A stretch of DNA of 32,000 bases from Coprobacillaceae bacterium (GCA_963675515.1 OY776328.1:900001-932000), one strand, 5' to 3'. Positions 11,188-31,856 are shown, counted from the stretch's first letter. Notes: generated from the sequence alone by a model not told the origin. Numbers and translations: made by a program.

Positions 11188-11253
11188 AAATTTGTCTTTG
11201 CCACCAAGTGTGATATAATGCGATTATAAAGCAGTTATGAAAGAGGTGGCAGC

Positions 11254-12225: not shown

Positions 12226-12263
12226 ACAAAATGATCTGACTGCAAATCAGGTTAATAAATAAG

Positions 12264-12300: not shown

Positions 12301-12322
12301 ATACTTATTACGAGGTGAGAAA

Positions 12323-14969: not shown

Positions 14970-14973
14970 CAGA

Positions 14974-15801: not shown

Positions 15802-15815
15802 GAGGGAGAAGCAAA

Positions 15816-17098: not shown

Positions 17099-17229
17099 AT
17101 TATTCACTAAGTGTCAATCCATCGTACAAAATCCAGATAAGGTAAGCCTGTTTGTTTAAATAAGCATATATGATTATCAAGTGAGCCGGTCAATTGGCGG
17201 AATCCAATTATCTCCTTGTCAATAACTTG

Positions 17230-17274
17230 TTGATGTCAAGTATACTTGATATCAATAAGTTTCTTCGGTATGAT
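17230..17274 (+). promoter_or_regulatory. Sigma-A-type promoter overlapped by a 26-bp palindromic operator
   Basis: The palindrome TTGATGTCAAGTATACTTGATATCAA (17230-17255) has 24 of 26 positions symmetric. The -35 TTGATA (17246-17251), a 17-nt spacer, and the -10 TATGAT (17269-17274) lie upstream of the 99-aa ORF. Confidence 0.4.
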
Positions 17275-17313
17275 TAAAGAGGTTAATTAATTTACATTAG
17301 GAGGAATAATTGA

Positions 17314-17613
17314 ATGTTTAGTCACATGGATGAAATTGAATTATTACAATATCTAAAAGCTGTCAGAATAACATATTACTTCACGTTGACGTTAGAAGTA
17401 ATTGCTTTCATATATTCTATACCCTGTTTAAACGAGTACTCAAATTTGATATTGCTCTTTATTTTGTCGCAACGTCTTCTTGTTACCATTGTTGTTGAAT
17501 ATTACAAAGTAAAGGCAGGTAAGAAAATGAGTAAAATACGTTTTGTCGCTGGTTGCATATTGATGATTGCTATAATGTTATTAATAATAAAATTGTCCTT
17601 AGTTCCCGGGTAG
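17314..17613 (+). CDS. Hypothetical small membrane protein (about 3 TM segments)
   Basis: 99 aa with a very good RBS (AGGAGG, 8 nt from the ATG). It has hydrophobic segments and a lysine-rich loop. I recognise no family. Confidence 0.5.
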   Translation: MFSHMDEIELLQYLKAVRITYYFTLTLEVIAFIYSIPCLNEYSNLILLFILSQRLLVTIVVEYYKVKAGKKMSKIRFVAGCILMIAIMLLIIKLSLVPG

Positions 17614-17970
17614 CTTTTCTAACCACATCTCAGGTTTTCGGTATCCTGACCGGGCATTCAATACCAAATGCTTTGTAGCAATCATTCGCCTTCTTGAAAG
17701 CTTCTTGAGTGATTGGCTCATATTTTTATCCTCGCTATCATGTCTAAATGATACGCTAAGAGGATGAAAAAGTTAAGGAAAACAGCAATTTTAGAAGGCA
17801 CAAAACACCCTTCTATCGCAACTTTAATTTAGGATAAAACCGAGTAAAAAGTTTACCTAAGTCATGTGGTCATTCAAAAACAACATTCTAAATATTAATC
17901 TTTCAATCTAAATAGACAGAGAATCTGTGAATTAACACGTTACATTTCCATTTTAGAAATAATATTCCTA

Positions 17971-18064
17971 GTTGATGTTGTTGGTGCGAATATTATGATT
18001 TTCGTGCTCATCTGTGGATTTAAAAGAGCTTTTTTGCTTTAATTTTATTATACCAACTGAGAGG
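17971..18064 (+). promoter_or_regulatory. Paralogue of the agrD-like promoter with candidate LytTR direct repeats
   Basis: It aligns without gaps to 31633-31726, about 71 of 94 identical by hand count. Direct repeats TTGGTGC (17981-17987) and TTCGTGC (18001-18007) are 20 bp apart. The -10-like box is TATACC (18049-18054), followed by a GAGAGGGGAG RBS-like run. Confidence 0.45.
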
Positions 18065-18090
18065 GGAGAGTGGTGGAGTAATCAAAAACC

Positions 18091-18258
18091 ATGTTAATGT
18101 TTGAAGTATATTTACTTGTTTCGGCATTTGTTTCATTAATTCTTAAAATGTCACGAGTAATTCCTAGAAAAAATATACTTATTATAGATAAAATGGTATT
18201 GAAATGGCCTGTAGCATTCATTACAGTTGCCTTGAGGATATATATTCACAACAGGTGA
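18091..18258 (+). CDS. Hypothetical 55-aa two-helix hydrophobic peptide downstream of the LytTR-box paralogue
   Basis: ATG at 18091 to TGA at 18256-18258 (MLMFEVYLLVSAFVSLILKMSRVIPRKNILIIDKMVLKWPVAFITVALRIYIHNR). It lacks a well-spaced RBS and overlaps a minus-strand track ORF. The call is weak. Confidence 0.25.
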   Translation: MLMFEVYLLVSAFVSLILKMSRVIPRKNILIIDKMVLKWPVAFITVALRIYIHNR

Positions 18259-18687
18259 ATATATATATTTACTTGGATGGTTGATTATTTTGGACTTTGT
18301 GGACATTATTATGTGTTTCAAAAAATCAAATAAATAATAGTACACGCCAAATAGAGCGTTGGGCCATTCGTGTAGTACGATATCGATAAAATCATTGGCA
18401 CGTAAAAAGGAATACCGCAACTTCTATTTCTGTTTTGGTATTCCTTGTTTCAGTTCTTTGATTTCCTTGCAGGTTTACTGCCGCAAATGTGTTGGCAATA
18501 CTTCATGGTAAGGAAGTAGTTTCTTAATTCTTCTTTATTTTCAGGATCGTTATTCGGTAGTCGCGCTAGAATCCATGATTGAAGAATAAAACACGCACAC
18601 ACCAAACATATTAAAAAAATGAATCTGAAATTATCGAATTCATTTATAGTTGTTTACTAAAATTTAGAAATCAATAGATTTAAAGTG

Positions 18688-18716
18688 TCGACATGAGTTA
18701 ATTTGAGTATTATACT
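18688..18716 (+). promoter_or_regulatory. Sigma-A-type promoter upstream of the small membrane protein and bacteriocin genes
   Basis: TCGACA (18688-18693), a 17-nt spacer, then TATACT (18711-18716). Confidence 0.45.
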
Positions 18717-18812
18717 ACGTAAAGAGTAGCTAACTGAGGTTTAATTGATTATTAGCTGCCTATCTGCTGCATCTAAACGATAAATATTAAATATGTAATT
18801 TAAGAAAGTAAA

Positions 18813-19028
18813 ATGAGGATTCGAATTTTGAAAATTATTATTATGCATTTGCCATTCGTTCTATTTATAATTACTGCGATATTTTTAAGAATAATTAATG
18901 TACCTTTAGTTTATAAGGCTATATTAATTGTGGCGGTAATTATTTACGGTGTGTTTTTTACAAAAAAATCTAGGAGTTATTTTCAAGACATGCTCTCTGG
19001 CAGCAACGTAAATGAGAACAGGAAATAG
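18813..19028 (+). CDS. Small cationic two-TM membrane protein; candidate circular-bacteriocin immunity protein
   Basis: 71 aa with two hydrophobic helices and a basic tail (KKSRSYF...NENRK). It lies immediately upstream of the bacteriocin gene. Size and character match the small immunity proteins of circular bacteriocin clusters. The assignment rests on context only. Confidence 0.45.
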   Translation: MRIRILKIIIMHLPFVLFIITAIFLRIINVPLVYKAILIVAVIIYGVFFTKKSRSYFQDMLSGSNVNENRK

Positions 19029-19134
19029 ATTTATAGAGGGGTTAAAATTATTTCCAATTTGGCCGTTCTATTCTACATTATCATCAAGTTGATGAAGTTA
19101 TAGATATATATAATTAGAAAGGGGGGTGAATCAA

Positions 19135-19368
19135 ATGGGAGCATTGTTATTTTTAGTCGCTGGAACATTAGGGGTCAGCACAACTATTGCAACATCGGTT
19201 GTTAGCATTGTATTGACAGGGTCAACTATTATCACTATTATTTTGGCACTTACTACAATCCTTTCTGCTGGTGCAGATGCAATTTTGACAATGGGATGGA
19301 CAGCTTTCGTTACAACAATTAAGACTATTGCTCAAAAGCAAGGTATTAAATATGCTGTGGCCTGGTAA
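19135..19368 (+). CDS. Circular bacteriocin precursor, circularin A/uberolysin-like (77 aa: ~7-aa leader plus ~70-aa core)
   Basis: The ATG at 19135 lies 8 nt after the RBS AAAGGGGGG. The track start at 19126 is a GTG inside the RBS. The sequence is MGALLFL/VAGTLGVSTTIATSVVSIVLTGSTIITIILALTTILSAGADAILTMGWTAFVTTIKTIAQKQGIKYAVAW. It aligns along its whole length with my recollection of circularin A (MFL/VAGALGVQT...LMTIGWATFKATVQKLAKQSMARAIAY). The C-terminus resembles AS-48 (...AVIAW). DUF95 and ABC ATPase genes lie downstream. Confidence 0.8.
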   Translation: MGALLFLVAGTLGVSTTIATSVVSIVLTGSTIITIILALTTILSAGADAILTMGWTAFVTTIKTIAQKQGIKYAVAW

Positions 19369-19436
19369 CTATTCCAAAAAATCAATAGTCGAATGGCGTG
19401 TGCTACACGCTTTCGGCTATTTTAATTATAATAAAG

Positions 19437-21114
19437 GGTAGTGTCAAATTCGTTATGGAAAAACAGTGATTTTTTCATAATAGAGTTTCGTGTTCGTTTT
19501 GTCGGTAATACCTAAGCGCTTCTTCCATGAGGATGTTCCACTTGTTTGGCATGTTATGAGTTTTCTTCAAACAATCCAATTCAACTGGTGGCTTGTATCC
19601 CAGGGAGGTGTGATTTCTTAGGAAATTGAAATATGTTGTGAACAGACACATGAAATCATTTGCGCCATCCAATGAGTTGAAGCCATTTTTGATCGCGTAG
19701 GTTTCTCCAAATGTTCTATTCAAACGCTCTATTATTTGTTTGGCAGGGCGATGTTCTTTTGATACAGGATCATCATTCGTAAGTCCAATTACTTGAGTCA
19801 CTTTAAAAAATACTCTTTTGATTTGAAAATACTGTTGAGCGGCTTTATATATCGGATTTCCGTCAACAACGATCTCAAAGTCAGTCGGTAACTTTTTGAA
19901 TTTTCTCATGACTGAATAAAAGGCATTTATAGCCGCAAAGGTATCTCTTTTCATGAAAATTCGATACGAAGTTATTATTTTTTTCCTAACATCGCACATG
20001 AAAAATACATAGGCTTTTTTTCCTAAAACTTTGACGTATGTTTCGTCTCCACAATGATACGAGTTCAAATCGTGCTTGTAGTTATCCATCCACGGAAATA
20101 GGAGATGGCTGGCTGCCTGAGCGTAGTTAGCTATTGTTTGATGGGATATTTTGATATCGTGAATCTCGTATAAAACCAAAGCGGTTTTTCTAAGAGACAG
20201 GCCATAATTAACGTAATACGTCAACGCTAGGCCTAAAACATGCTTAGAATTGTGGATTCTGGAGAGATCAACTTTTGATGGTGCTATTTTCAGCTGGATG
20301 CTTTCAAGTTTTTCGATTGAAGCATCGAAGACGCGGGTTATGTAGTGAAGCGAGAATTTAGAAGGATTTACCTTGTATTTCTTTTTATCTTCTTTTGTTA
20401 GTTTCTTCAACTCACTCTTATAGTGAGAACATCTAGAGTTTTGACATTTATAGACATCAAAACCATCACGTGATTTGATCAACGTCAACTTGCGGCCGCA
20501 GTGAGGACACTTGCGGATCAATTGTTGCGAATAACTCTTATTAAGTGAGAAAGTCGTATCACAAACTTTGCACTTAACTTGGGATTTCTTGATTCCGTTG
20601 TTGAAAGTCAGGTATTCATGAGTGGCGCCGCAATGTGGGCAAACAGTATCTTCAGATGGATAGTCTTTGCCTTCATGTCTAAACACCGGTTTCAAAGGTC
20701 GTTTATGTTTGGATTCATACTCATCCCTGGCCTGTTGAAATGGGATGGGGATTAATTGCGGTTCAATAACAGGAAGCGGATGCATTTTGAAACGACGATA
20801 TGGTTCACTCTTACTTGAATCCGTACCATCACTGGGAAGATGCTTTAGCAGGAAACACTCAAATTTGTACAAAAATCTACGAATGATATTTAAAAAATTG
20901 ATTATTAATGATATAATTTTGACCATGGTAACAGTCCTCCTTATTGTGGTTTAGACACTTACAATTATGAGGCTGTTACCTTTTTTTGTAAACAAAATGG
21001 TCAAATTATAGGGTGAAATCCGGGGGAATTTACCTAAATATATAAAAAACCAAGGTAGAATGCGGTTTTCCAGTTAATTATGGTTGTAAATAACTAACTG
21101 GTTTTGACACTACC
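19437..21114 (-). mobile_element. IS6-family-like insertion sequence (long form with Zn-finger N-terminal extension), 1678 bp
   Basis: Perfect 12-bp terminal inverted repeats GGTAGTGTCAAA sit at 19437-19448 and, as complement, at 21103-21114. An 8-bp target duplication TAATAAAG lies at 19429-19436 and 21115-21122. There is a single transposase ORF. Confidence 0.8.
19475..20926 (-). CDS. IS6-family-like DDE transposase with N-terminal zinc-ribbon region
   Basis: 483 aa with RBS AAGGAGG. CxxC pairs: CPHCG...CKVCD and CPHCG...C. The DDE core resembles IS26/IS257-type transposases (GDETYVKVLGKKAYVFFMCD, VVDGNPIY, QIIERLNRTF). Confidence 0.85.
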   Translation of the reverse strand: MVKIISLIINFLNIIRRFLYKFECFLLKHLPSDGTDSSKSEPYRRFKMHPLPVIEPQLIPIPFQQARDEYESKHKRPLKPVFRHEGKDYPSEDTVCPHCGATHEYLTFNNGIKKSQVKCKVCDTTFSLNKSYSQQLIRKCPHCGRKLTLIKSRDGFDVYKCQNSRCSHYKSELKKLTKEDKKKYKVNPSKFSLHYITRVFDASIEKLESIQLKIAPSKVDLSRIHNSKHVLGLALTYYVNYGLSLRKTALVLYEIHDIKISHQTIANYAQAASHLLFPWMDNYKHDLNSYHCGDETYVKVLGKKAYVFFMCDVRKKIITSYRIFMKRDTFAAINAFYSVMRKFKKLPTDFEIVVDGNPIYKAAQQYFQIKRVFFKVTQVIGLTNDDPVSKEHRPAKQIIERLNRTFGETYAIKNGFNSLDGANDFMCLFTTYFNFLRNHTSLGYKPPVELDCLKKTHNMPNKWNILMEEALRYYRQNEHETLL

Positions 21115-21137
21115 TAATAAAGGTAGGTACATTTATT

Positions 21138-22259
21138 ATGAAAATTACTAATTATGTTAAAATGATATGTTTATTTTATAAAAACATATCACTTGAGAAA
21201 ATATCATTTATAGCAAGGAAAATGAAAAGTGATAATCCATTTAGAATGCATTTAATTTGTGAATCATTGAAACTGTTTAGTTCAATTTTGATGATTATCT
21301 TGTTATATAATAATGTATATAGTTATAACACAAATCTATTTGTTTCCATTTTATTGTTAATTTACCTTGTACAAAATTTGTTGATGCTTGTGGGTCCCTG
21401 GAAGATAATAAGAAAGAGATTCAAATATAGTTACTTACGGATGACTGCTTCCGGAGATTGTATGTATCTCCGAAAAGTTATTGTGCTTAACTTTTTTGTT
21501 GAATATTTATTATCACTTCCAATGAATTTGCCTATTTTGATTGGACTTATAGTCACAGCCAATTTGTTTGCGGTGCTGTTAGCCATAAATATTAGTGCGT
21601 TATCATTTCTTTTCTACATAATCAGACATTCTCAAAAGATGTTGAGAAAAGGACCAATGGCTACAATAATGTTTTTTGTTTCACGTATGTGCACATTTTC
21701 AATAGGTTACTTATTTGCATTTATATTATCAAGATTGGTCTTAATATCTAGATCTGGAATAAAAGAATTTGGTTTGTCCGTAATGTACGTTTCATGGGTG
21801 GATAGTATAATTAACGATTCTTTGTTTTCCATAACAAAATATTTTCGTAATATATTATTAAACGTCGATTACTATCTAGTAAACGACTATCGAATTATTA
21901 GTTTTCTATTAATATTGATATTATTTTTCGTATTTATTTCGTTAATGATTTTGAAACGTATTTCTAAAGAAATCATACAAATAACATACAAATTACCAAA
22001 TTGCTATATTAACTCATTAAGTAAATTTGAAAATAAACATGAAATTGATAATCCGTTTTTGTTCAAAGATCTGTGCATTTTCATTGATAAAACAAGGAAA
22101 CTTGAGTACAGTCCAATGGAGTTCCTATTTACGAATGAGCTGTTCTTTTTTATAGGGATAAATATAGTATTTTTACCACTAATCAATAATTATTTTATCT
22201 TTGCGTTTTTATTTGTTTTTGAACTTTTTTTCTTAATTGACCACCAAATACATCCTTAA
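21138..22259 (+). pseudogene. N-terminal part of the IS-disrupted large polytopic membrane protein (CirB/As-48B-like maturation protein)
   Basis: Multi-TM ORF. Its last 9 codons and the stop at 22257-22259 are read from the left end of an IS. Native sequence ends at the TSD at 22224-22231. Confidence 0.7.
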
Positions 22260-22289
22260 ATCTAATAATGATTTACACACCGTTTTTCC

Positions 22290-23433
22290 GGCTATGTTAG
22301 CCCAAAGCAATGCTTTCATAGATGAAGCCTGTTCCAATATAATTTTCTCGCCTAAAATCACAATGGCATTGATAAATATCCACAAAATAATCATGGACGT
22401 CTCTAGCTCTTGTTTCAATCATGTATGCTATGTACGCCAGATATTCATTAAGGTATTTAGAAGATATCCCATTGTGTTTTTTCATATACTTTTCAATTTG
22501 AGAATGCACGTAATTGACGTGATTTATGTGGTAGATTCCTCGCTTTGCCTTGCTTTTTGCTGGAAACGCATAATGGTCGATTTTCAGACTCTCACTTAAT
22601 CTTCGATATACGAATAATCCATCCGTACAAAGCGTTGTTGCTTTTTGAAGGTGTTTCAGATATACAGCGGTTGTCGTTTCGTTATCAAGCGTTGTCGATC
22701 CGATCTTAGCGACCTTGAGTAATATATGGCCGTTCCTGTCAACCGCGCTTGCTATTTGTACGGCATCGGTTATATTTTGATCTTTCTTGTCTCTACGGTT
22801 ACCTTTTCGTCCTCTTTTATAGGGCTTCCTGGGTAATGGTTTTGCCGCCTGTTTACTGTGATTCCCGGAATAACTGATGTTTACGCTCATTTCATCTAAT
22901 TCCACAATCCCGCTAAGCTCAACGTTTTCCATCCTGTGAGCTAGCGCGTTCAATATTTTATGGCGCATGAAAAAACTGCATTTTAACGACACTCCTGCAT
23001 ATTTGGCACAGTCCCTCAAATCTTCGTCATGGCTCATTATTATCAGATACTTAAGCCAGGTTATATAAGAAAGTTTGGTATTCTCCAAAATTGTACCAAC
23101 ATACGGAGTAAAAGTTTTACCGCAATCAATGCATCTAAAACGTTGTGTTTTGTTTTTGTAGTGGCCATCTCGTTTAATATGATGGTGACCGCAACGAGGG
23201 CACGAAATTGAATCGTTGTGTTTGGCTTCTAATGCATCCACAAGGATCTTGGTGTAATCATTTAGAAGTTGACGGTCCTGAATGAAAACAATTAGGGCGT
23301 TTAAATCATCGCTGTTTAAAGTATCCAGTTCATTCTTAATTTTTTCTAATTCCATGGTTATCCCACCTCTTCTCTATTATACACCTAATTCTACAGGAAA
23401 AGTCGATAAACATCTTTATGGGCTAACATAGCC
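22290..23433 (-). mobile_element. IS1595-family-like element A (1144 bp), nested 50 bp inside the left end of element B
   Basis: 14-bp perfect inverted repeats are GGCTATGTTAGCCC (22290-22303) and GGGCTAACATAGCC (23420-23433). The 8-bp target duplication GTTTTTCC lies at 22282-22289 and 23434-23441. Confidence 0.8.
22297..23355 (-). CDS. IS1595-family transposase (zinc ribbon plus ISXO2-like DDE domain)
   Basis: 352 aa with RBS AGAGGTGGG. Zinc ribbon: CPRCGHHHIKRDG...FRCIDCGKTF. It has an ELDEMSV acidic motif. The stop codon lies in the terminal repeat. Confidence 0.85.
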   Translation of the reverse strand: MELEKIKNELDTLNSDDLNALIVFIQDRQLLNDYTKILVDALEAKHNDSISCPRCGHHHIKRDGHYKNKTQRFRCIDCGKTFTPYVGTILENTKLSYITWLKYLIIMSHDEDLRDCAKYAGVSLKCSFFMRHKILNALAHRMENVELSGIVELDEMSVNISYSGNHSKQAAKPLPRKPYKRGRKGNRRDKKDQNITDAVQIASAVDRNGHILLKVAKIGSTTLDNETTTAVYLKHLQKATTLCTDGLFVYRRLSESLKIDHYAFPAKSKAKRGIYHINHVNYVHSQIEKYMKKHNGISSKYLNEYLAYIAYMIETRARDVHDYFVDIYQCHCDFRRENYIGTGFIYESIALG

Positions 23434-23511
23434 GTTTTTCCGCCTTCTAAATTCTTGGTTTTTAGTGATTAGACTTCATCACTTTGGTATGATATTACCG
23501 AGGTGATATCA

Positions 23512-24483
23512 ATGGCAATAAAACTAAAACCGAAGAAAGATTCTTTAATAACTCTTACTAGAAAATATGCTAATGACAATGATGAATGTGTGAAGTTCTT
23601 CTTCACTATCAAGTGGCCTGAAGGGTTCTACTGTGAAAAGTGCGGTTGTACGCATTACTACTTCATTGAAAGTAGAAAAGCTTATCAATGCAAGGAATGC
23701 AAACATCAGCACTATCTGCTAGCAGGTACCATATTCCAGGACACCAAGCTCGAACTTTACAAACTGATCTTAGGCATGTATATTTTCTTTACCTCCAATA
23801 AAGGTGTTTCAGCAATAGAACTCGCAAGTGAACTCGACGTCAATTACAAAACAGCCTTACTTCTTGCCAGAAAATGTCGAATTTTGATGGCTCAAAGCTG
23901 TAGTGAAAAGATGCTCGATAGCTTGTTTTATGAAGCTGACGTCGCATATATTGGATCCAAGAGCAAAGAGAAGAATCGTCAAGGTTGTGCTACAGAGCAA
24001 CAGCCTTTTTTGGTCGTACTTTCGACGGATGCAGAAAATCATTACCCAAAATACATCAAACTTCACCCTATTCCAACCGACAATCAAATCCAGGTAAAAA
24101 ATGTCATCTCGAAGAGCATCAAACTATCAAAGGATCGAAAACTGAATACCGATGGCAAAACTACATTTAACAAAATTGAGGATGAGATTGAGTTGTGTAA
24201 GGAAAAGATCATTTACAAAGAGGATGATCATCGCTTGTATTGGATTAACACTTTGATTGGTGATATCAAAAACAATATCACTGGAATATATCATGGCGTA
24301 GCAAAGCGGGATCTGCCTTTATTCCTAAATGAGCAGGAGTGGCGCTTCAACCACCGTTATACAGGTGCTTATTTCATGGATAAAATAAGAAAATATCTGC
24401 TACTTTCATCGCCGATGCCAAAAAGAAAAATCGTAACGGTTCTTAACTTAGCAGAATCATATTTTTCAAGTACATGTATCTGA
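23512..24483 (+). CDS. IS1595-family transposase of element B
   Basis: The likely start is the ATG at 23512, 6 nt after GAGGTG. The track start at 23503 is the GTG inside that RBS. N-terminal motif: FFFTIKWPEGFYCEKCGCTHYY...YQCKECKHQH...AGTIFQDTKL. It has an EADVAYIG motif. The stop lies inside the right inverted repeat. Confidence 0.8.
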   Translation: MAIKLKPKKDSLITLTRKYANDNDECVKFFFTIKWPEGFYCEKCGCTHYYFIESRKAYQCKECKHQHYLLAGTIFQDTKLELYKLILGMYIFFTSNKGVSAIELASELDVNYKTALLLARKCRILMAQSCSEKMLDSLFYEADVAYIGSKSKEKNRQGCATEQQPFLVVLSTDAENHYPKYIKLHPIPTDNQIQVKNVISKSIKLSKDRKLNTDGKTTFNKIEDEIELCKEKIIYKEDDHRLYWINTLIGDIKNNITGIYHGVAKRDLPLFLNEQEWRFNHRYTGAYFMDKIRKYLLLSSPMPKRKIVTVLNLAESYFSSTCI

Positions 24484-24503
24484 TGGTCAATTAAGCTTTT
24501 TTT

Positions 24504-25107
24504 TATAATTGTAGGAAATTTAAGAATTGTAACATATAGATTTGATGAAGTGTTTAGATTTAGAAGCGATATCGATAAATGGAAAATAATTTACTTGTCG
24601 GGCACTAGAGGAACATATCAGGTCTTGTTTTCAAAATATTATTTGTTGAAGCACCTTGCCAAAATCCCTTGTTTATTTACTTGTTTTGTGTTATTTGTAA
24701 TGTTTTCTGGCTATATGTCAATATATGCTACCATTCTTATTCTAGATATTGCGATCGTCATTGCACTCTTTAGCGATATAGTTAAATGGATACTGAGAAC
24801 AGATTACGATTTTTATTGTATAATTATTAAAAACAAGTACGCAGTTAATGAGGTCTCGATTGAGGATTATTTGGGTTATAATCTGGTATCCAATGCAAAT
24901 AAAACGGTACATAGGTTGTTTTTGTTTGTTACATTTTTTATTTTAATATTATGTTCGTTTTTGAAGTTAATTTCAGGATGGCAATGGGTTATATTTTATG
25001 TTACATATTTAATTGTTTTCGTGATCGATATAAAAGCAAATTCTATGTACTATCCTACGGATAAAATAATTAAAATTGGAAGGAGAGAATTGAATGAGCA
25101 GAATTAA
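24504..25107 (+). pseudogene. C-terminal part of the IS-disrupted CirB/As-48B-like membrane protein
   Basis: The frame is open from the right target duplication. The track ORF 24550-25107 merely starts at an internal GTG. Joining 22231 to 24504 keeps the frame (see findings). Confidence 0.7.
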
Positions 25108-25621
25108 TAGAATAATATCCGGGCATGTCAAATACTTATGTATTTCTATATCTGTTTATATTTTAGGGATAATTTTTGGAATGATTATTTCAGCTGATAC
25201 GAAATTGACTATCAATCCAACTAGTATGCAATTTGTTGAAACATTTGTCCACAATGAAATAATCGGGTTAGGTTTGGTTGTTTTTGGAATTGTAACGTTT
25301 GGATTTTTCAATACTATTTTCCTGGCATACAATGGGTTTTCATTGGGTTTGATAATAATTGGCGTATACAATCAATATGGTATAAGTCCATTGATTTCTG
25401 GTGTTGCCCCACATGCTCTAATTGAAACTTTTGCCATAACAATGTCATGTACGCTAGGATATGAGTCGTTGCGCCTTGTAAAGATGGTAAAAAATAATTT
25501 AGATTCGGATATAAAGGGAAAAATTTATATAAGTGATTTTATAATATTACTAATATCCACTAGTTTGCTATATGTTGTCGGGGCATTCATAGAATCATCA
25601 TTCTCAAATGTAATAATATAA
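25094..25621 (+). CDS. DUF95/SpoIIM-family membrane protein (As-48C/CirC-like)
   Basis: 175 aa with about 4 TM segments and RBS GGAGAG. It overlaps the upstream gene by 14 nt. The conserved PH-x-x-x-E motif (APHALIETFAIT) is typical of SpoIIM/DUF95 proteins found in circular bacteriocin clusters. Confidence 0.7.
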   Translation: MSRINRIISGHVKYLCISISVYILGIIFGMIISADTKLTINPTSMQFVETFVHNEIIGLGLVVFGIVTFGFFNTIFLAYNGFSLGLIIIGVYNQYGISPLISGVAPHALIETFAITMSCTLGYESLRLVKMVKNNLDSDIKGKIYISDFIILLISTSLLYVVGAFIESSFSNVII

Positions 25622-25634
25622 AGGGGGCAAGAAA

Positions 25635-26264
25635 ATGAATGATGTAGTACTTGATATAAAAGAGTTATCATATAGTTATGACGGGAAAAAATTTATCTTA
25701 AAAAATATAAACTTTTTCATTAGAGAAGGAGAGGTGGTAAAACTTAGTGGACCTAACGGGGTTGGCAAATCGACATTTCTTAATATAGTTTCAGGTCTAA
25801 TTGATGATTCCAATTTAGAATATACTGCGGAATTTCAAAATGAGGAGATAATATTTGAAAATATGCGTTCTAGAATATCTTTTGTACTGGATACACCAGA
25901 ATTATTCGATCAACTTACTGGATCTGAAAACATTAAAATGTACAGCTTACTGTTTGAGTGTGATGATGCATATTTTGATAGAGTTCTGGACTGGTGCAAT
26001 AAATATCGTATAATAGATTTTTTAAGCCGTCCGGTAGAAGAGTATTCCTTGGGTACTCGACATAAATTGTTCTTAGCGATACTCATATCGAGAAAAGTTG
26101 ATCTTATTCTTTTAGATGAGCCTTTCAATGCTTTGGATGATTCTAGTAGAAAATACCTTGTTGGGCATATTAATTCTTGTAGAGACTCTTCGTTCATCAT
26201 TGTTTCACATCTTAATCAACCTGGTCTGAAATTGGATAGGGATTTTGAAATGAAATTATATTAA
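25635..26264 (+). CDS. ABC transporter ATP-binding protein (As-48D/CirD-like)
   Basis: 209 aa with RBS AAGGGGG. Walker A: GPNGVGKST. Degenerate signature: YSLGTRHKL. Walker B: LILLDEPFNALD. No cognate permease gene is adjacent. Confidence 0.85.
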   Translation: MNDVVLDIKELSYSYDGKKFILKNINFFIREGEVVKLSGPNGVGKSTFLNIVSGLIDDSNLEYTAEFQNEEIIFENMRSRISFVLDTPELFDQLTGSENIKMYSLLFECDDAYFDRVLDWCNKYRIIDFLSRPVEEYSLGTRHKLFLAILISRKVDLILLDEPFNALDDSSRKYLVGHINSCRDSSFIIVSHLNQPGLKLDRDFEMKLY

Positions 26265-26289
26265 CCTTAGTTCCTAGTCGGCTTTTCTT

Positions 26290-27024: not shown

Positions 27025-27591
27025 TCAGGATTGTTCCGGTTTACTTGGTAATAATACCGAATTCAATATTATTGCCGATATCGATAAAAAAGATCCGGTA
27101 GCGGCGTAGCTAGTATATCCGCTTTTTACGGATGATAAAATCAAGATCGTTATAGTATTCAGCGAATACAAAATAAGTTTATTTCGAAGATCATTTCTCT
27201 CAAAAGTCCTTTTCCAAGGATTAATATTTATCAGCACAAATATTGAAAGAAATAGAAAGTACCCCAGGACATAGATCATAATTGAAGGCATAATGGAACT
27301 TAATAACATCCCAATTGACCAAATAATAATACCTAATAAGTAGCATCCAAAAGGTGTTTTGGAATGATACCCGGCATTGTTGGTCCTGAAGACAAGAAAA
27401 CACGATAGCATTATCAGGGATTCCAAAAATCTGCCGCTAAGTATCGAAATGATTAAATAACTAATGGAATTTAACGCAAATAATATTATAGCGGATAAAG
27501 CATATTCTATTTGCTGCATTTTGAATGCGTCATCAATGCAATTTTTTTGGCAAATTTTACGTGAAAGACGTGAAACAAATACGTGCAGCAT
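27025..27591 (-). CDS. agrB: AgrB-family AIP-processing membrane peptidase
   Basis: 188-aa polytopic protein. The motif FRTNNAGYHSKTPFGCY places a His and a Cys 7 residues apart, as in S. aureus AgrB (RRHAHGAHAPSSFWCY). Its ATG lies 1 nt after the kinase stop, with the GAGGTG RBS inside the kinase 3' end. Confidence 0.8.
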   Translation of the reverse strand: MLHVFVSRLSRKICQKNCIDDAFKMQQIEYALSAIILFALNSISYLIISILSGRFLESLIMLSCFLVFRTNNAGYHSKTPFGCYLLGIIIWSIGMLLSSIMPSIMIYVLGYFLFLSIFVLININPWKRTFERNDLRNKLILYSLNTITILILSSVKSGYTSYAATGSFLSISAIILNSVLLPSKPEQS

Positions 27592-27592: not shown

Positions 27593-28861
27593 TTACACCT
27601 CAGTATTATAAATATAAATATTAATGTCTTGATGGGTTACCGCCGGGATTAGGATGGTAACTTTAAATGTTGCCTCCGTATAACTGACATCAATCATGCC
27701 ATCGTATTTTTTTACTATTCTTCTGATGTTTTTCAAACCGTAACCGTGATTAGCGCCACCCTTTCGTGAAAGGATTTTAGAATCACTTAAAATGATTTTT
27801 CCGTCAAATGTGTTCTCACAAATTATTCTAATCATTTTGTTTGGAAGTAGAGCTATTGATATACGAACCCTTTTATTCTCTGTGGTTTGAGCAGCTTCTA
27901 AAGCATTGGAAGTAATATTTCCAAATAATGAACACAAATCAAAATTATCGATGTGAGAAATGTCCGGAACTTCTAACTCGATATCGAGTGAAACGCCCAA
28001 TAAATTACTTTTACTGATAAAGTCACTTATTGTAGAGTCAAGGTAGATGTTTCCTGTATTCACAACGATAATTTTGTTGTCCATTTCCAATCCGATATTA
28101 TTGATATATTCTTCCAATTGAGTATATGACTTATTCGAGACAAGATGGCCAAGCGTGTTGAGGTGGAATTTTACGTCATGCTTCCATGATTTAAGGTGGT
28201 TGTATGATTTGATTGTTTTGTCATAAAGTTCGGTTCTGAGTTCATTCTCTTTAAGCAATAGGTCGATACTGTATTTTCTCGTTAAGTTTGTAATTAGTAT
28301 TCTTGTTTGAACAAATGAGATTAAATTGACTGCAAAAAGGGAGACAGTAATGACCAACAAATACAGATTATCTGAATTAAACTCTAAATAATGTCTTAAT
28401 ATAAATACCATGGATAAAACTGAAGCCAGTGGCACTACCATATATAAATAAACGTATCTTTCATTATTATCAAGATTGTTTGAATAAGAACCTCTGTTCA
28501 TTTGAAGAGAGATAAGAAACATCAGTATAAATATTATTGTTCTTGTAATAATCATCAGCAGTAATCTGATGAACTCTTCTCCCATCAGCTGCTGGACATC
28601 AATGCTTGAAAACGATGTTACCAGTGATATGGTAATCAATTCGACCAGGTTAAATATCAAAAAAGCAACAACTGGAACTAAAAATTTAAATAGAAAGCGC
28701 CCGCTGTAAAAAATCAGTGAATATAAGATATAAATTAGAAATACCAGCATTACTGCGCTTGAATTGTATTTTTGAATGGTAAACACAGTTAAAATTGCAG
28801 ATATAAAAATGAAAATTGCTGCGTTGATATAACGCATTGGAAGTTCTTTATTTACTAGCAT
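27593..28861 (-). CDS. agrC: AgrC-like (HPK10-type) membrane sensor histidine kinase
   Basis: 422 aa with about 6 N-terminal TM helices. H-box: WKHDVKFHLNTL. N-box: GNITSNALEAA. G-box: NHGYGLKNI. The RBS at 28861 is poor, so the start is uncertain (the alternative is the MRYIN Met). Confidence 0.8.
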   Translation of the reverse strand: MLVNKELPMRYINAAIFIFISAILTVFTIQKYNSSAVMLVFLIYILYSLIFYSGRFLFKFLVPVVAFLIFNLVELITISLVTSFSSIDVQQLMGEEFIRLLLMIITRTIIFILMFLISLQMNRGSYSNNLDNNERYVYLYMVVPLASVLSMVFILRHYLEFNSDNLYLLVITVSLFAVNLISFVQTRILITNLTRKYSIDLLLKENELRTELYDKTIKSYNHLKSWKHDVKFHLNTLGHLVSNKSYTQLEEYINNIGLEMDNKIIVVNTGNIYLDSTISDFISKSNLLGVSLDIELEVPDISHIDNFDLCSLFGNITSNALEAAQTTENKRVRISIALLPNKMIRIICENTFDGKIILSDSKILSRKGGANHGYGLKNIRRIVKKYDGMIDVSYTEATFKVTILIPAVTHQDINIYIYNTEV

Positions 28862-28978
28862 TGAATCAATAAAAAACAGGACGAGAAAGACATCTACTAA
28901 ACCCCCTGTGTTAGGATAGTTGTCGTATAGAACGTTTTAGATTATACTTAGTAAAAAGTATACCAAGGAGACCTAGCC

Positions 28979-29455
28979 ATGACCAAAACTTATACGACAG
29001 AAGAAAAAATCAAGATCATCAGTGAGGTTGAACCACCACTTAACAAGACGGTTGTTCAGATTGCTGAAGAAACCGGCATCAAGACGACTACACTATATTC
29101 TTGGAAAAGAAGATACCTCAAAAATCATTCAGTTTCTAAAATCAAAGAACGCTACAACAAGGAACAACGTTTCCATTTCATCGCTGAATCCGCTCCCCTC
29201 AGTGAACATGAGCTCGGTGAATATTGCCGCAAAAAAGGGATTCATCCTGATGAGTTGGTTAAGTGGAAGAAGGAATTCCTAAGCCCTGAAACCAAGTCCG
29301 ATTCTCTAAAAGATGACCTGCAAGCCGAACGGCAAAAGCGCAAAGAGCTGGAAAAACAATTGCGCCGCAAGGAAAAGGCATTAGCCGAGGCAGCTGCATT
29401 ACTGGTTCTTGAAAAAAAGCTCCAGGCAATTTGGGACGACAACGAGGAAGATTAA
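28979..29455 (+). CDS. IS3-family transposase OrfA (HTH plus leucine-zipper region)
   Basis: 158 aa with RBS AAGGAG. HTH: VVQIAEETGIKTTTLYSWKRRY. It has a coiled-coil C-terminus. The A7G slippery site lies near the 3' end. Confidence 0.85.
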   Translation: MTKTYTTEEKIKIISEVEPPLNKTVVQIAEETGIKTTTLYSWKRRYLKNHSVSKIKERYNKEQRFHFIAESAPLSEHELGEYCRKKGIHPDELVKWKKEFLSPETKSDSLKDDLQAERQKRKELEKQLRRKEKALAEAAALLVLEKKLQAIWDDNEED

Positions 29456-30507
29456 CGACTCTCAAATTGCGCAAAGAAATCGTTACGTTAATCAAAGAAG
29501 CGAACGCCAATGGTGCCCGCTTGATCCCGGCATGCAAGGTGGCAGGGATTTCGAAACGGACGTATGAAAGATGGACTCAAGAAGACAATATTTCCACTGA
29601 TAGGCGTAAAGAACCACGGCTAAATCCTCCAAAGAATAAGCTCAGCAATGAAGAACGCGAAGCTATAATGAGAATAGTTAACAGTCCTGATTATAGGCAA
29701 TTGACACCGGCTGAGATTGTTCCGTTACTGGCTGACAAAGGTATCTATATTGCTTCAGAATCAACCATCTACCGTCTATTAAGAGAGTTGAAACAATTGA
29801 AACATCGCGGCCGTACAGCCCCGAAGCACCACAGACAAGCCACCACCCATATTGCAATCAAACCGAACCAAGTTTGGAGTTGGGACATCACTTGGTTGCA
29901 CCGCAAGGATATCCGAGGAGTTTATTACAAGCTATACATGATAATGGACATCTTCAGCCGCAAAATTGTCGGGTACGAAGTATGGGAGACGGAAAACGCT
30001 GAATATTCCGCAATCCTGATGCAACGCACACTTTTAAGCGAACGAATCAATGGCGAACCGCTGGTCTTGCACTCCGATAACGGTGGTCCGATGAAGGCAG
30101 CTACATTTCTGGGGATGCTCGAGAATCTTGGTGTGCAAAGCTCATTTTCTAGACCGCGGGTAAGCAACGATAATCCATATTCTGAATCGTTGTTTAAGAC
30201 ATTTAAATATATGCCAAAATACCCCACAAGCGGTTTTGAATCACTCACACACGCTAGAAGCTGGGTCAATGAATTTGTACAATGGTACAACGAAATTCAC
30301 TTACACAGCGGAATCAAATACGTGACACCCGCCAGTCGCCATCGAGGGGAAGATGCTGCGATACTGCAAAAAAGGAAAGAAGTTTATGCTGAAGCTAAAA
30401 TGAAAAACCCTGAACGATGGAGTGGATCAGCCAGAGACTGGTCCTGGATTGAAGCAGTTGCCCTAAATCCGACAAAAGAAAGTGAATTATTGATCAACGA
30501 AGTTTAA
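29431..30507 (+). CDS. IS3-family transposase OrfB (rve DDE integrase core), expressed as an OrfAB fusion by -1 frameshifting
   Basis: It lies in frame -1 relative to orfA. DDE core: WSWDITW, LHSDNGGPM, NPYSESLFKTFK. Confidence 0.85.
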   Translation: MGRQRGRLTTLKLRKEIVTLIKEANANGARLIPACKVAGISKRTYERWTQEDNISTDRRKEPRLNPPKNKLSNEEREAIMRIVNSPDYRQLTPAEIVPLLADKGIYIASESTIYRLLRELKQLKHRGRTAPKHHRQATTHIAIKPNQVWSWDITWLHRKDIRGVYYKLYMIMDIFSRKIVGYEVWETENAEYSAILMQRTLLSERINGEPLVLHSDNGGPMKAATFLGMLENLGVQSSFSRPRVSNDNPYSESLFKTFKYMPKYPTSGFESLTHARSWVNEFVQWYNEIHLHSGIKYVTPASRHRGEDAAILQKRKEVYAEAKMKNPERWSGSARDWSWIEAVALNPTKESELLINEV

Positions 30508-30610
30508 CAAGCGCAACTCAAGAATTTGCATAATTAATATGAAAAAAATGCGTCAACTATATTGACAAATACCGTAAATTGATAATAATCTCAGACATTA
30601 AATACATGTG

Positions 30611-31318
30611 CTATCCTCCAAAAAATTTCAAAAACAGATTTTGTACATCTTTCATTTTTGATCTCCCTACCGGAATTGAGTCTCCGTTAGAAATTTGAAC
30701 ATACTGACTTTTAAACGAAGCCACATAGTTCAAATTTACAATGTATGACCTATGTATTCTAAACATATCATGGTCAATCAACAAATCTTCAATTTTTGAA
30801 ATTGGAATATTGATTTGCTTTTCTTCTTCTATCATATGAAATATGCAATTATGTTTATCTGACTCAACATACATAATGGATTTTGTATCTATCGTATAGT
30901 AACCGTTTGATGCGTCTAAACGAATTAATCTGTCGATGTTTTTTTGAAGAGAATTAGCAATCTGATCTAATGTTTTATTTAATCTAGTCTGGTTGACGGG
31001 CTTTACAATATAATCCAGCGCAGACACCTCATATCCATTGATTGCAAACTGGCTGTGTGAAGTAATAAAACATATTATGATATTCTTATTGTTTTTCCTG
31101 AGCTCTTTAGCAAATTCAATACCGGAAATTTCAGGAATTTCTATATCGAGTAGTGCCACATCGCAGTCCATTGCTTCTCCAGGAATCATGTATGATACTT
31201 TATTGGTAACGGTAAATTCTACAATGTTATTTGTGTTTTTTGCCCAATTGTCGATATATCCAATTAAAATGTCCCGGTCTATTTTAGAATCTTCAGCGAT
31301 GAAAAAACTAATGTTCAT
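30611..31318 (-). CDS. agrA: LytTR-family response regulator (AgrA-like)
   Basis: Start moved to MNISFFIAEDSK with RBS GAGAGGGG. The track start at 31447 adds 43 implausible residues. The receiver domain has DVALLDIEIP, and the C-terminal LytTR domain has IMYVESDKHNCIF...FRIHRSYIVNL. Confidence 0.85.
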   Translation of the reverse strand: MNISFFIAEDSKIDRDILIGYIDNWAKNTNNIVEFTVTNKVSYMIPGEAMDCDVALLDIEIPEISGIEFAKELRKNNKNIIICFITSHSQFAINGYEVSALDYIVKPVNQTRLNKTLDQIANSLQKNIDRLIRLDASNGYYTIDTKSIMYVESDKHNCIFHMIEEEKQINIPISKIEDLLIDHDMFRIHRSYIVNLNYVASFKSQYVQISNGDSIPVGRSKMKDVQNLFLKFFGG

Positions 31319-31632
31319 GTAATTATCCCCTCTCTCATTTTGTTTCAATTCTACATGATTGTAACATATATTTTGCAGTTTGTATAATTGTTCCGAACAT
31401 AAATCCGTCAATATAAAGGATACAGGAGAGTATTTTTGTATAAACATAATACATTACTTAATTAATCATCAAATACAGGTGAGCACGGTATTGGATTATT
31501 GTCGATTTTGAAAAATCACCAAATGTCGCGCATTTTGGATGTAGTAATATTTCTTCGTTACTGACTATGAACTCCAAGATGTATCTGTTGGCTAATTAAG
31601 AAACATTATTTTTTTGTTCAATTATTTTCTTT

Positions 31633-31726
31633 GGTGTTGTTGTTGGTGCAAAAATTTTGCTTTTCATGCTCAATAGTGGAATCTAAAGAAATTTGATGTT
31701 TAAAATTAATTATACTAAATGAGAGG
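31633..31726 (+). promoter_or_regulatory. agrD-like promoter with candidate LytTR direct repeats
   Basis: Direct repeats TTGGTGC (31643-31649) and TTCATGC (31663-31669) are 20 bp apart. The -10 box TATACT lies at 31711-31716 with no good -35, which suggests activator dependence. RBS GAGAGGAG follows. It is paralogous to 17971-18064. Confidence 0.45.
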
Positions 31727-31736
31727 AGATAATCGA

Positions 31737-31856
31737 ATGGAATCAAAAAAAGTTGTGAAATTTTTGATAAAAATATCACAGGCTGCTAGCGACATAACTT
31801 GCTGGGGTGCATTTTTTCAACCTGATGCGCCAAAACGAAAATTTATTTCAAAATAA
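31737..31856 (+). CDS. agrD: AgrD-like autoinducing-peptide precursor (39 aa, below the ORF-track size cut-off)
   Basis: The peptide is MESKKVVKFLIKISQAASDITCWGAFFQPDAPKRKFISK, with RBS GAGAGGAG 7-8 nt upstream. It has an amphipathic basic N-terminus. A single Cys is followed by 4 residues (CWGAF). The tail is aromatic-Q-P-x-x-P, comparable to L. plantarum LamD (CVGIW/FETKIPDE) and Listeria AgrD (CFMFV/YEPKSP) as I recall them. Confidence 0.65.
   Translation: MESKKVVKFLIKISQAASDITCWGAFFQPDAPKRKFISK

What the first reader, a model, noticed from the sequence alone, without database searches (positions are those of the whole stretch)
17971..18064. Paralogous copy of the agrD-like promoter inside the bacteriocin segment
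The 94 nt upstream of the AgrD-like gene (31633-31726) and 17971-18064 align without gaps, about 71 of 94 identical by hand. Both direct repeats are conserved (TTGGTGC and TTC[G/A]TGC, 20 bp apart). The -10 box (TATAC[C/T]) and the GAGAGG RBS are conserved too.

The similarity continues into the first codons: ATGGAATCAAAAAAAG versus GTGGAGTAATCAAAAACC. In the island copy a TAA interrupts the frame after two codons, so no second propeptide is encoded.

Direct repeats with ~2 helical turns of spacing are the known recognition mode of LytTR regulators. So a regulator-responsive promoter may sit about 1.1 kb upstream of the circular bacteriocin gene. Peptide-pheromone control is classic for linear class II bacteriocins. 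To my knowledge it is not an established feature of circular ones.
Basis: partly seen in the sequence, partly recalled or inferred. Interest (0 to 1): 0.7.

Follow-up and report, generated by a model that had tools for sequence, protein, structure and literature searches.

The report
Orphan agrD-type promoter in bacteriocin island
A real but diverged second copy of a quorum-sensing (agrD) promoter sits inside a horizontally acquired circular-bacteriocin island, yet it looks like a relic followed by junk DNA, and both the sensor kinase and the bacteriocin machinery are broken by insertion sequences, so control of the bacteriocin by the pheromone system is only a possibility.

Summary
17971-18064 and 31633-31726 share 71/94 bases ungapped (z = 10; next best register 47). 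A gapped alignment extends this to 17958-18104 vs 31620-31767 (107/150, E 2e-20). The block TGTTGTTGGTGC-N8-TGNTTTTCRTGC occurs only at these two sites. It is invariant in the orthologous agrD promoters of two other genomes (L024, L025).

The island copy is as far from the resident promoter (76%) as the L025 orthologue is. It is therefore a third lineage that arrived with the 9.2-kb low-GC island, not a recent duplication. L024 shows the empty site.

Homology stops about 10 codons into agrD. What follows is GTG-GAG-TAA, an orphan 55-aa ORF, and an antisense gene remnant with a hairpin. The bacteriocin operon, 750 bp downstream, has its own sigma-70-like promoter.

The system is decayed in this strain. 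The sensor kinase is split by IS3 at codon 11. The ~553-aa bacteriocin membrane protein is split by two IS1595-like elements.

Verdict: a genuine LytTR-type promoter copy, most likely a relic or orphan regulon site. Pheromone control of the circular bacteriocin is plausible as an ancestral state but is not shown. The closest homologous operon (L018) has its own LytTR-like 21-bp-period repeats next to its -35.

The parts
17958..18104 (+). Island copy of the agrD promoter plus the first ~10 codons of agrD (full extent of the homology)
   Evidence: blastn 107/150, E 2e-20 vs 31620-31767. 77% and 75% identical to the agrD promoters of L024 and L025.
17976..17987 (+). Half-site 1, TGTTGTTGGTGC (putative LytTR regulator site)
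   Evidence: Invariant in all four promoters. Pattern unique to the two sites.
17996..18007 (+). Half-site 2, TGATTTTCGTGC, 20 bp after half-site 1
   Evidence: TTTTC.TGC is invariant in all four promoters.
18049..18054 (+). -10-like hexamer TATACC (TATACT in the resident copy, 31711-31716)
   Evidence: TTATA is invariant in the alignment. No full sigma-70 consensus with a -35 was found here, as expected for an activator-dependent promoter.
18059..18064 (+). Shine-Dalgarno-like GAGAGG
   Evidence: Conserved in all four sequences.
18073..18081 (+). Degenerate agrD start GTG GAG TAA (in-frame stop)
   Evidence: Sequence read directly. Gapped alignment to ATG GAA TCA.
18091..18258 (+). Orphan 55-aa hydrophobic ORF, in the old agrD frame; its first ~5 codons still align with agrD codons 6-10
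   Evidence: ORF list. No Pfam or NCBIfam hit. Only itself found among 1.84e9 representatives.
18324..18519 (-). Remnant of the 3' end of an unknown gene (in-frame stop and frameshift) with its hairpin-U5 terminator (18407-18446)
   Evidence: Shared with L025 2920-3095. Hairpin -17.1 kcal/mol on the + strand and -14.8 on the - strand.
18688..18716 (+). Sigma-70-like promoter (TCGACA-17-TATACT) proximal to the bacteriocin operon
   Evidence: 10/12 match. No TTSRTGC pair nearby.
18813..19028 (+). 71-aa membrane protein, first gene of the bacteriocin operon
   Evidence: 35% identical to the 61-aa protein that precedes the closest bacteriocin homologue in L018.
19126..19368 (+). Circular bacteriocin precursor (uberolysin/circularin A family)
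   Evidence: PF09221 1.7e-17. TIGR03651 5.7e-20.
21138..25107 (+). Bacteriocin membrane (maturation/immunity) protein gene, split into 373-aa and 185-aa halves by two IS1595-like elements (22297-23355, 23503-24483)
   Evidence: The halves match residues 1-372 and 381-551 of the intact 553-aa L023 protein. IS1595 domains found.
17148..26289 (.). Low-GC (about 27-38%) island flanked by 610-bp direct repeats (16479-17088 and 26290-26898, 93% identical) of the adh 3' end
   Evidence: Self-blast. GC profile. Absent from L024. Left junction present in L028.
31620..31767 (+). Resident agrD promoter and start of agrD (half-sites 31638-31649 and 31658-31669; agrD 31737-31856)
   Evidence: TIGR04223 AgrD 3.9e-6. 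91% identical to L024.
30611..31318 (-). LytTR response regulator (235 aa from M44 of the longest ORF)
   Evidence: PF04397 and PF00072. 97% identical to P0006.
27593..30610 (-). AgrC-type histidine kinase gene interrupted after codon 11 by an IS3-family element (28901-30574)
   Evidence: PF14501. Junctions compared with the intact 445-aa L024 gene.
27025..27591 (-). AgrB
   Evidence: PF04647 7.8e-20.

Best explanation
17958-18104 is a diverged homologue of the promoter and 5' end of agrD. It comes from a distinctive agr-like module in which a regulator-kinase-AgrB operon is transcribed divergently from agrD, and agrD is followed by variable 'cargo' genes. The segment entered this genome on the 9.2-kb low-GC circular-bacteriocin island. 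That island integrated at the 3' end of the fucO-like alcohol dehydrogenase gene, directly beside the resident agr module. The copy keeps the two half-sites that are invariant across the family (TGTTGTTGGTGC and TGNTTTTCRTGC, 20-bp period), the -10-like element and the SD. A LytTR regulator of this subfamily could therefore still bind it and start transcription near 18060; candidates are the resident one, or the 62%-identical paralogue encoded elsewhere in the genome. What it now drives is a dead agrD start, an orphan 55-aa ORF and decayed DNA. I read it as a relic of a donor agrD locus whose downstream cargo was the bacteriocin operon, surviving as an orphan or decoy regulon site. At most it adds read-through transcription to an operon that has its own promoter. 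Shown: the homology, the conservation of the motifs, the island origin, and the decay of the downstream sequence and of both systems. Inferred: regulator binding, promoter activity, and the ancestral promoter-agrD-bacteriocin unit.
For: - Homology statistics.
- The motif is unique to the two sites and invariant in four promoters from three genomes.
- The island agrees with the orthologue-invariant columns at 59/76 positions, against 17/31 at variable ones (p = 0.03).
- Pairwise identities are island-resident 76%, island-L024 77% and island-L025 68%, against resident-L025 76%. This indicates an old, separate lineage.
- The island is bounded by 93%-identical repeats, is low in GC, is absent in L024 where adh abuts agrB, and is present at 97% identity in L028 where the core is 94%.
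- Homology ends abruptly at 18104. No similarity to agrD, to its cargo genes or to the agr genes follows.
- The 55-aa ORF is an orphan.
- An antisense gene remnant with a terminator is shared with the L025 agr neighbourhood.
- The cargo downstream of agrD differs in all three genomes, which fits a variable cargo slot under this promoter.
- A proximal sigma-70-like promoter lies at 18688-18716.
- IS elements disrupt the kinase and the bacteriocin membrane protein.
Against: - Retention of every family-invariant block at 76% overall identity suggests that selection for regulator binding persisted. This favours a still-functional site over a dead relic.
- No terminator meeting the scan's criteria lies between 18064 and 19368 on the + strand, so read-through into the bacteriocin operon cannot be excluded.
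- The ancestral 'promoter-agrD-bacteriocin' arrangement was not observed in any retrieved locus.
- The source genome itself, including the locus of the second regulator, could not be read.
Confidence: 0.55

Rival explanations
1. The copy is a working pheromone-responsive promoter. Through the LytTR regulator, it places the circular bacteriocin operon (18813-19368 and beyond) under agr-type quorum-sensing control by read-through transcription.
For: - The binding half-sites, the -10 and the SD are all intact.
- It has the same orientation as the operon, and no canonical + strand terminator lies between them.
- The regulator is encoded 12.5 kb away and a paralogue exists in the genome.
- The closest homologous bacteriocin operon (L018-L021) has significant 21-bp-period direct repeats 3 nt upstream of its -35. 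LytTR-type control of this bacteriocin clade is therefore plausible in general.
- Reviews note HK/RR genes near several circular bacteriocin clusters (PMC6131525).
Against: - 750 bp of non-coding or decayed sequence intervenes. It includes a -17 kcal/mol hairpin followed by a partial U tract.
- The operon has its own promoter-like site and no half-site pair near it.
- In this strain the kinase is split at codon 11 and the essential membrane protein gene is split by IS elements. The circuit cannot deliver bacteriocin here.
- No related locus with this promoter next to a bacteriocin operon was found in genome or metagenome scans.
Confidence: 0.2
2. The promoter was captured to express a new small membrane peptide, the 55-aa ORF at 18091-18258. 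The peptide would be a quorum-regulated gene in its own right, for example an immunity or accessory peptide.
For: - The ORF is in the ancestral agrD frame.
- It starts 12 nt after a GGAG.
- It is hydrophobic with two TM-like segments.
- It was called as a gene in the source genome's annotation.
Against: - It has no homologue anywhere and no family hit.
- It is short and AT-rich, and it is overlapped by equally long antisense ORFs.
- The surrounding region shows pseudogene debris.
Confidence: 0.1
3. The copy arose by recent duplication or gene conversion of the resident agrD promoter within this genome.
For: The two copies are on the same strand and in the same 14-kb neighbourhood.
Against: - Identity is only 76%, equal to the distance to the L025 orthologue, while the resident promoter is 94% identical to L024.
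- The copy lies inside a foreign low-GC island that L024 lacks.
Confidence: 0.05
4. The similarity is a chance resemblance between AT-rich intergenic sequences.
For: Both regions are AT-rich.
Against: z = 10 against 63,574 alternative registers. E 2e-20. 0 matches to the motif in 100 dinucleotide shuffles.
Confidence: 0.01

Closest known systems
AgrA-dependent P2/P3 promoters of the Staphylococcus aureus agr locus (LytTR regulator bound to paired direct repeats; established knowledge; PMC5600425 listed)
   Same: - A LytTR response regulator gene lies next to a divergent intergenic region.
- Two half-sites about two helical turns apart sit upstream of a promoter that lacks a good -35.
- The regulated promoter drives the signalling-peptide side of the circuit.
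- More than one promoter in the genome carries the site.
   Different: - The half-sites are TGTTGTTGGTGC / TGNTTTTCRTGC, not ACAGTTAAG.
- The period is 20 bp rather than 21-22 bp.
- The gene order is regulator-kinase-AgrB, divergent from agrD, rather than agrBDCA.
- No RNAIII-like effector is evident.
- Binding is untested.
Pheromone-regulated promoters of linear class II bacteriocins (pln, spp, blp, sil; LytTR regulators with 9-10 bp direct repeats next to the -35; PMC4517551, PMC2766830)
   Same: The concept is a peptide pheromone, a kinase and a LytTR regulator that activate bacteriocin operons through repeated promoter copies scattered in the locus. The L018 relative shows exactly this geometry.
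   Different: - The pheromone here is an AgrD/AgrB-type cyclic peptide rather than a double-glycine peptide.
- The bacteriocin is circular.
- The promoter copy is 750 bp from the operon, with debris in between.
fsr (agr-like) system of Enterococcus faecalis, whose FsrA regulator also activates the ef1097 bacteriocin-precursor promoter (own knowledge, not checked here)
   Same: An agr-type system with a LytTR regulator has a second target promoter linked to an antimicrobial peptide.
   Different: - The target there is a linear peptide and the link has been shown experimentally.
- Here the target would be a circular bacteriocin and nothing is shown.
- The repeat sequences differ.
Circular bacteriocin gene clusters of the uberolysin/circularin A/carnocyclin family (PMC6131525)
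   Same: The precursor, a large multi-pass membrane protein, a SpoIIM/DUF95 protein, an ABC ATPase and a small upstream membrane protein are all present.
   Different: - The cluster is IS-riddled: one IS6/IS240-like element and two IS1595-like elements.
- It carries an agrD-type promoter relic upstream.
- Published clusters have no identified pheromone.

Membership tests
LytTR/AgrA-type activator-dependent promoter | Two similar half-sites in direct orientation about two helical turns apart | tested here: met
   TGTTGTTGGTGC and TGATTTTCGTGC share 9/12 bases with a 20-bp period. The self-similarity alone is not significant, and the period is 20 bp rather than the usual 21.
LytTR/AgrA-type activator-dependent promoter | Half-sites conserved among homologous promoters while the flanks drift | tested here: met
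   Both blocks are invariant in 4 sequences at 68-79% overall identity between lineages.
LytTR/AgrA-type activator-dependent promoter | Sites lie upstream of a promoter with a -10 but a poor or absent -35 | tested here: inconclusive
   TATAC[C/T] lies 41 nt after half-site 2. The consensus scan finds no full sigma-70 promoter at either copy. The TSS is unknown, and the island hexamer lacks the final T.
LytTR/AgrA-type activator-dependent promoter | A cognate LytTR regulator is encoded in the genome | tested here: met
   PF04397 and PF00072 at 30611-31318. A second paralogue, P0009, is on the same contig.
LytTR/AgrA-type activator-dependent promoter | Regulator binding and pheromone-dependent transcription | not testable with these tools
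   This needs EMSA or footprinting and TSS mapping.
agr-type quorum-sensing locus (resident module 27025-31856) | AgrB, AgrD, a GHKL_5 kinase and a LytTR regulator are present | tested here: met
   PF04647, TIGR04223, PF14501 and PF04397.
agr-type quorum-sensing locus (resident module 27025-31856) | agrBDCA operon order | tested here: not met
   The order is regulator-kinase-agrB on one strand and agrD alone on the other. L024 and L025 show the same order.
agr-type quorum-sensing locus (resident module 27025-31856) | All four genes intact | tested here: not met
   The kinase is split by IS3 after codon 11.
AgrD propeptide (for the sequence after the island promoter) | An open frame with the AgrD HMM signature and a Cys/Ser ring residue followed by an acidic/Pro tail | tested here: not met
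   A stop occurs after GTG GAG. The 55-aa ORF has no TIGR04223 hit and no Cys. DNA homology ends at 18104.
Circular bacteriocin cluster, uberolysin/circularin A family | A PF09221/TIGR03651 precursor with a large membrane protein, a SpoIIM protein and an ABC ATPase | tested here: met
   However, the membrane protein gene is interrupted, so production is doubtful.

The most novel reading that the evidence does not exclude
Circular bacteriocins of this clade are, or ancestrally were, cargo of agr-type thiolactone-pheromone circuits. In the island's donor, the agrD promoter transcribed agrD and then the circular bacteriocin operon. After transfer next to a related resident agr module, the retained half-sites let the resident LytTR regulator cross-activate the incoming operon. 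The independent LytTR-like 21-bp-period repeats abutting the -35 of the closest homologous operon (L018) would be a second example. Together these would make pheromone control a recurrent feature of circular bacteriocins, which has so far gone undocumented.
Probability: 0.22. Interest if true: 0.6.

Novelty: new member of a known kind. Interest (0 to 1): 0.35.

Why it matters
Regulation of circular bacteriocins is described as largely unknown, and no cognate pheromone has been identified (PMC6131525). A regulator-binding promoter of an AgrD/AgrB-type system physically joined to a circular bacteriocin island gives a concrete, testable candidate link. It also gives a defined DNA motif and a predicted AIP (ring CWGAF) to test it with. 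In addition, it illustrates how quorum-sensing regulons may grow or shrink by horizontal transfer of promoter-plus-cargo units next to a compatible resident regulator. In this particular strain the biology is probably extinct, because both the kinase and the maturation gene are IS-disrupted. The value is therefore as a lead, not as a demonstrated new regulatory mode.

Tried and rejected
- **Exact-protein look-ups.** Look-ups of the window's own proteins (bacteriocin precursor in two start variants, adh, P0001, P0009) found no retrievable contig. The source genome, the second regulator's locus and a genome-wide motif count were therefore out of reach.
- **Genome scan.** The genome-contig scan with GTTGGTGC-N11-TTTCRTGCTC returned 17 hits. 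All are chance matches in unrelated, mostly high-GC genomes, with 21-37/94 identity including the pattern bases.
- **Metagenome scan.** The metagenome-contig scan with the 21-base family-invariant pattern returned one chance hit in coding DNA.
- **Plasmid searches.** Searches with the island's left part and with two IS elements found nothing.
- **Rfam.** No known RNA family occurs anywhere in the window.
- **55-aa ORF as a diverged AgrD.** Rejected: no HMM hit, no Cys, and an abrupt end of the DNA homology.
- **Hidden remnants.** tblastn and tblastx found no remnants of agrB, the kinase, the regulator or the L024/L025 cargo genes in 17089-18812.
- **More half-site pairs.** Relaxed searches found no further pairs near the bacteriocin operon or the regulator operon (one search gave background-level hits only).
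- **Organism.** The RhaA search only narrows it to an unnamed Bacillota lineage. The nearest named relatives are 79-86% identical (Clostridium spp., Longibaculum, Coprobacillus).
- **L028.** This other strain carries the island, but its contig ends at the equivalent of 17491, before the promoter copy.

Full report
**1. Observation**

I slid the agrD-side stretch over every register of both strands. This gave a background of 25.4 +/- 4.5 identities with a maximum of 47, so the island match stands 10 sd out.

Gapped blastn extends the homology to 17958-18104 vs 31620-31767 (107/150, E 2e-20). That covers about 12 nt further upstream and about 10 codons into agrD. A self-comparison of the whole window finds only one other internal non-palindromic repeat, the 610-bp adh duplication.

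TTGGTGC-N13-TTCRTGC occurs only at 17981 and 31643, with none expected by chance. The longer block TGTTGTTGGTGC-N8-TGNTTTTCRTGC has no third match even with three mismatches.

**2. Context**

- **Core region.** Bases 1-16973 are a ~45% GC core region with a rhamnose-utilisation cluster that ends in a Fe-alcohol dehydrogenase gene.
- **Island.** A 610-bp direct repeat (16479-17088 and 26290-26898, 93% identical) covers the adh 3' end plus its terminator. It brackets a ~30% GC island.
- **Island contents.** In order, the island holds:
  - a 99-aa membrane protein gene;
  - the promoter copy;
  - a 71-aa membrane protein gene;
  - a circular bacteriocin precursor (PF09221 1.7e-17; TIGR03651 5.7e-20);
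  - an IS6/IS240-like element;
  - a large membrane-protein gene;
  - a SpoIIM-family gene;
  - an ABC ATPase gene.
- **Split membrane-protein gene.** Its 373-aa and 185-aa halves match residues 1-372 and 381-551 of an intact 553-aa homologue (L023). Two IS1595-like elements separate the halves.
- **agr-like module.** Directly after the right repeat comes a low-GC agr-like module. AgrB (PF04647), a GHKL_5 histidine kinase and a LytTR response regulator are on the minus strand. AgrD (TIGR04223...DITCWGAFFQP...) is divergent on the plus strand.
- **Split kinase.** An IS3-family element (28901-30574) is inserted after codon 11 of the kinase. This is shown by comparison with the intact 445-aa gene of L024.

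**3. Relatives**

- **L024.** The regulator's closest relative (P0006, 97%) lies on L024, whose core is 95.6% identical to the window. There adh directly abuts agrB, so L024 is the empty site for the island.
- **L025.** This locus (regulator 82% identical) has the same module in a different genome, again with IS damage.
- **Module architecture.** In both loci, agrD (same CWGAF core) is divergent from the regulator and is followed by unrelated 'cargo'. L024 has a 256-aa secreted protein, a 73-aa membrane protein and a 90-aa protein. L025 has a 340-aa protein and a 151-aa lipoprotein. The 144 bp after agrD in the window match neither. The module therefore looks like a conserved promoter-agrD unit with a variable cargo slot.
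- **L028.** This is another strain with the island's left junction at the same site. The island part is 97% identical while the core is 94%. The contig ends before the promoter copy.
- **Second regulator.** A second regulator of the same subfamily (P0009, 62% identical, LytTR domain well conserved) is on the same 2,881,239-bp contig as the window's bacteriocin. Its locus could not be retrieved.

**4. The promoter family**

I aligned the island copy with the three agrD promoters: window, L024 and L025. TGTTGTTGGTGC, TTTTC.TGC, TTATA and the GAGG of the SD are invariant.

Pairwise identities over the 94 columns:

| Pair | Identity |
|---|---|
| island - window | 76% |
| island - L024 | 77% |
| island - L025 | 68% |
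| window - L025 | 76% |
| L024 - L025 | 79% |
| window - L024 | 94% |

The island copy is thus a third, old lineage of the family. It is not a recent duplicate of the resident promoter.

The island copy agrees with the resident promoter at 59/76 columns that are invariant among the three orthologues, against 17/31 variable columns (Fisher p = 0.03). This is modest evidence that it has been held to the same functional constraints.

The two half-sites resemble each other only moderately (8-9 of 12), and this is not exceptional in shuffles. 'Direct repeats bound by a LytTR dimer' is therefore an inference from three things: conservation, the roughly two-turn spacing, and the adjacent regulator gene. 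It is not a demonstrated fact. Neither copy has a full sigma-70 consensus, which fits activator dependence.

**5. What lies downstream of the island copy**

- Homology to agrD stops at 18104.
- The old start is GTG GAG TAA.
- A 55-aa hydrophobic ORF (18091-18258) continues in the same frame. It has no Cys and no family hit. In an exhaustive search of 1.84e9 representatives its only credible match is itself; the one other listed hit had no aligned stretch.
- Bases 18324-18519 carry, on the minus strand, the C-terminal remnant of an unknown gene with an in-frame stop and a frameshift. Its hairpin-U5 terminator is at 18407-18446.
- The same remnant occurs a few kb downstream of agrD in L025. This is a further hint that the island's left part derives from an agr-type neighbourhood.
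- On the plus strand the hairpin is stable (-17.1 kcal/mol) and is followed by GUUUCAGUUCUUUG. It does not meet the terminator scan's criteria.
- A good sigma-70-like promoter (TCGACA-17-TATACT, 18688-18716) sits about 100 nt before the 71-aa gene. No half-site pair is near it.

**6. Interpretation**

I commit to the following reading. The copy is the promoter-plus-5'-agrD relic of a related agr module, and it travelled with the island. It probably still offers a binding site for the resident regulator or the paralogous one. It is not demonstrably the bacteriocin's promoter.

The most economical history is this. In the donor, the circular bacteriocin operon occupied the cargo slot downstream of agrD. 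The donor was a relative, since its adh fragment is 91-93% identical. agrD and the intervening DNA then decayed.

In the present strain the circuit cannot work as a bacteriocin switch. The kinase is split, so the regulator is uncoupled from the signal, and AgrB and the kinase are uncoupled from the operon promoter. The bacteriocin membrane protein is also split.

It gains indirect support from the closest homologue of the bacteriocin (P0002, 83%; L018-L021). That operon is preceded by 14-nt direct repeats, CGTTTACGGGGTTA / CGTTCAGGGGGTTA, with a 21-bp period. They lie 3 nt upstream of TTGAAA-17-TG-TATTTT, and only 10 of 1000 shuffles reach this similarity. This is the canonical geometry of LytTR-regulated bacteriocin promoters, with a different recognition sequence.

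**7. Comparison with what is known**

The element works like AgrA-dependent promoters, and like the multiple pheromone-responsive promoters of linear class II bacteriocin loci. It differs in four ways:

- the half-site sequence;
- the 20-bp period;
- the unusual module order (regulator-kinase-agrB divergent from agrD plus cargo);
- its attachment to a circular bacteriocin island.

A 2018 review states that regulation of circular bacteriocin production is largely unknown. [quoted passage not shown] Pneumocyclicin is flanked by an XRE-type regulator (PMC4517551). Full-text searches for 'circular bacteriocin' with LytTR or AgrD found no report of such a link. These searches cover open-access papers only.

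**8. Verdict**

The feature is a new member of a known kind: a LytTR-type pheromone-responsive promoter, here as an island-borne orphan copy. Its interest is moderate-to-low in its present decayed state. It nonetheless gives a testable lead towards pheromone control of circular bacteriocins.

Noticed in passing
L018:971-1037 (also L019-L021): The closest homologue of the window's circular bacteriocin operon is preceded by 14-nt direct repeats, CGTTTACGGGGTTA / CGTTCAGGGGGTTA, with a 21-bp period. They lie 3 nt upstream of a TTGAAA-17-TG-TATTTT promoter. This is canonical LytTR-type geometry with a different recognition sequence. The contigs are too short to show a regulator.
   Followed up: partly
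window 28901-30574 (kinase 27593-28861 plus its 11-codon stub near 30575-30610): An IS3-family element is inserted after codon 11 of the AgrC-type kinase gene. L025 carries an IS3-type insertion in its kinase too. The quorum-sensing module therefore seems prone to IS inactivation.
   Followed up: yes
window 19475-20926, 22297-23355, 23503-24483: Three IS elements (one IS6/IS240-like and two IS1595-like) lie inside the bacteriocin cluster. The two IS1595-like copies split the ~553-aa membrane protein gene into 373-aa and 185-aa ORFs.
   Followed up: yes
window 16479-17088 and 26290-26898: A 610-bp direct repeat (93% identical) of the adh 3' end plus terminator flanks the island. The left copy is 95.6% identical to the empty-site relative L024, and the right copy is 91% identical and frameshifted. 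About 217 bp present in L024 between adh and agrB (L024 12745-12962) are missing from the window.
   Followed up: partly
window 18324-18519 (minus strand) and L025:2920-3095: These share the remnant of the 3' end of an unknown gene (...LLPYxxxLPxxLRQLTxKEIKELKxGIPxQK*) plus its hairpin-U terminator. In the window it carries an in-frame stop and a frameshift. The gene family was not identified.
   Followed up: partly
source genome, outside the window (protein P0009): A second LytTR regulator, 62% identical to the window's and with a well conserved DNA-binding domain, is on the same 2.88-Mb contig. This implies a second agr-like system that might be the island promoter's true partner. Its locus could not be retrieved.
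   Followed up: partly
L024:7627-9486 and L025:6337-7979; window 31857-32000: The genes downstream of agrD are unrelated in the three genomes. They comprise secreted 256-aa and 340-aa proteins, a 73-aa membrane protein and a 151-aa lipoprotein, none with a Pfam family. This suggests a variable cargo slot under the agrD promoter.
   Followed up: partly
window 17224-17261: A 38-bp near-perfect palindrome (AACTTGTTGATGTCAAGTATACTTGATATCAATAAGTT) overlaps the promoter-like site (17246-17274) of the 99-aa membrane protein gene at the island's left end. It looks like an operator and is conserved in L028.
   Followed up: no
window 30611-31447: The longest ORF of the regulator (278 aa) is probably over-extended. 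Homologues are 235 aa and start at the MNISFF... methionine (31318).
   Followed up: yes
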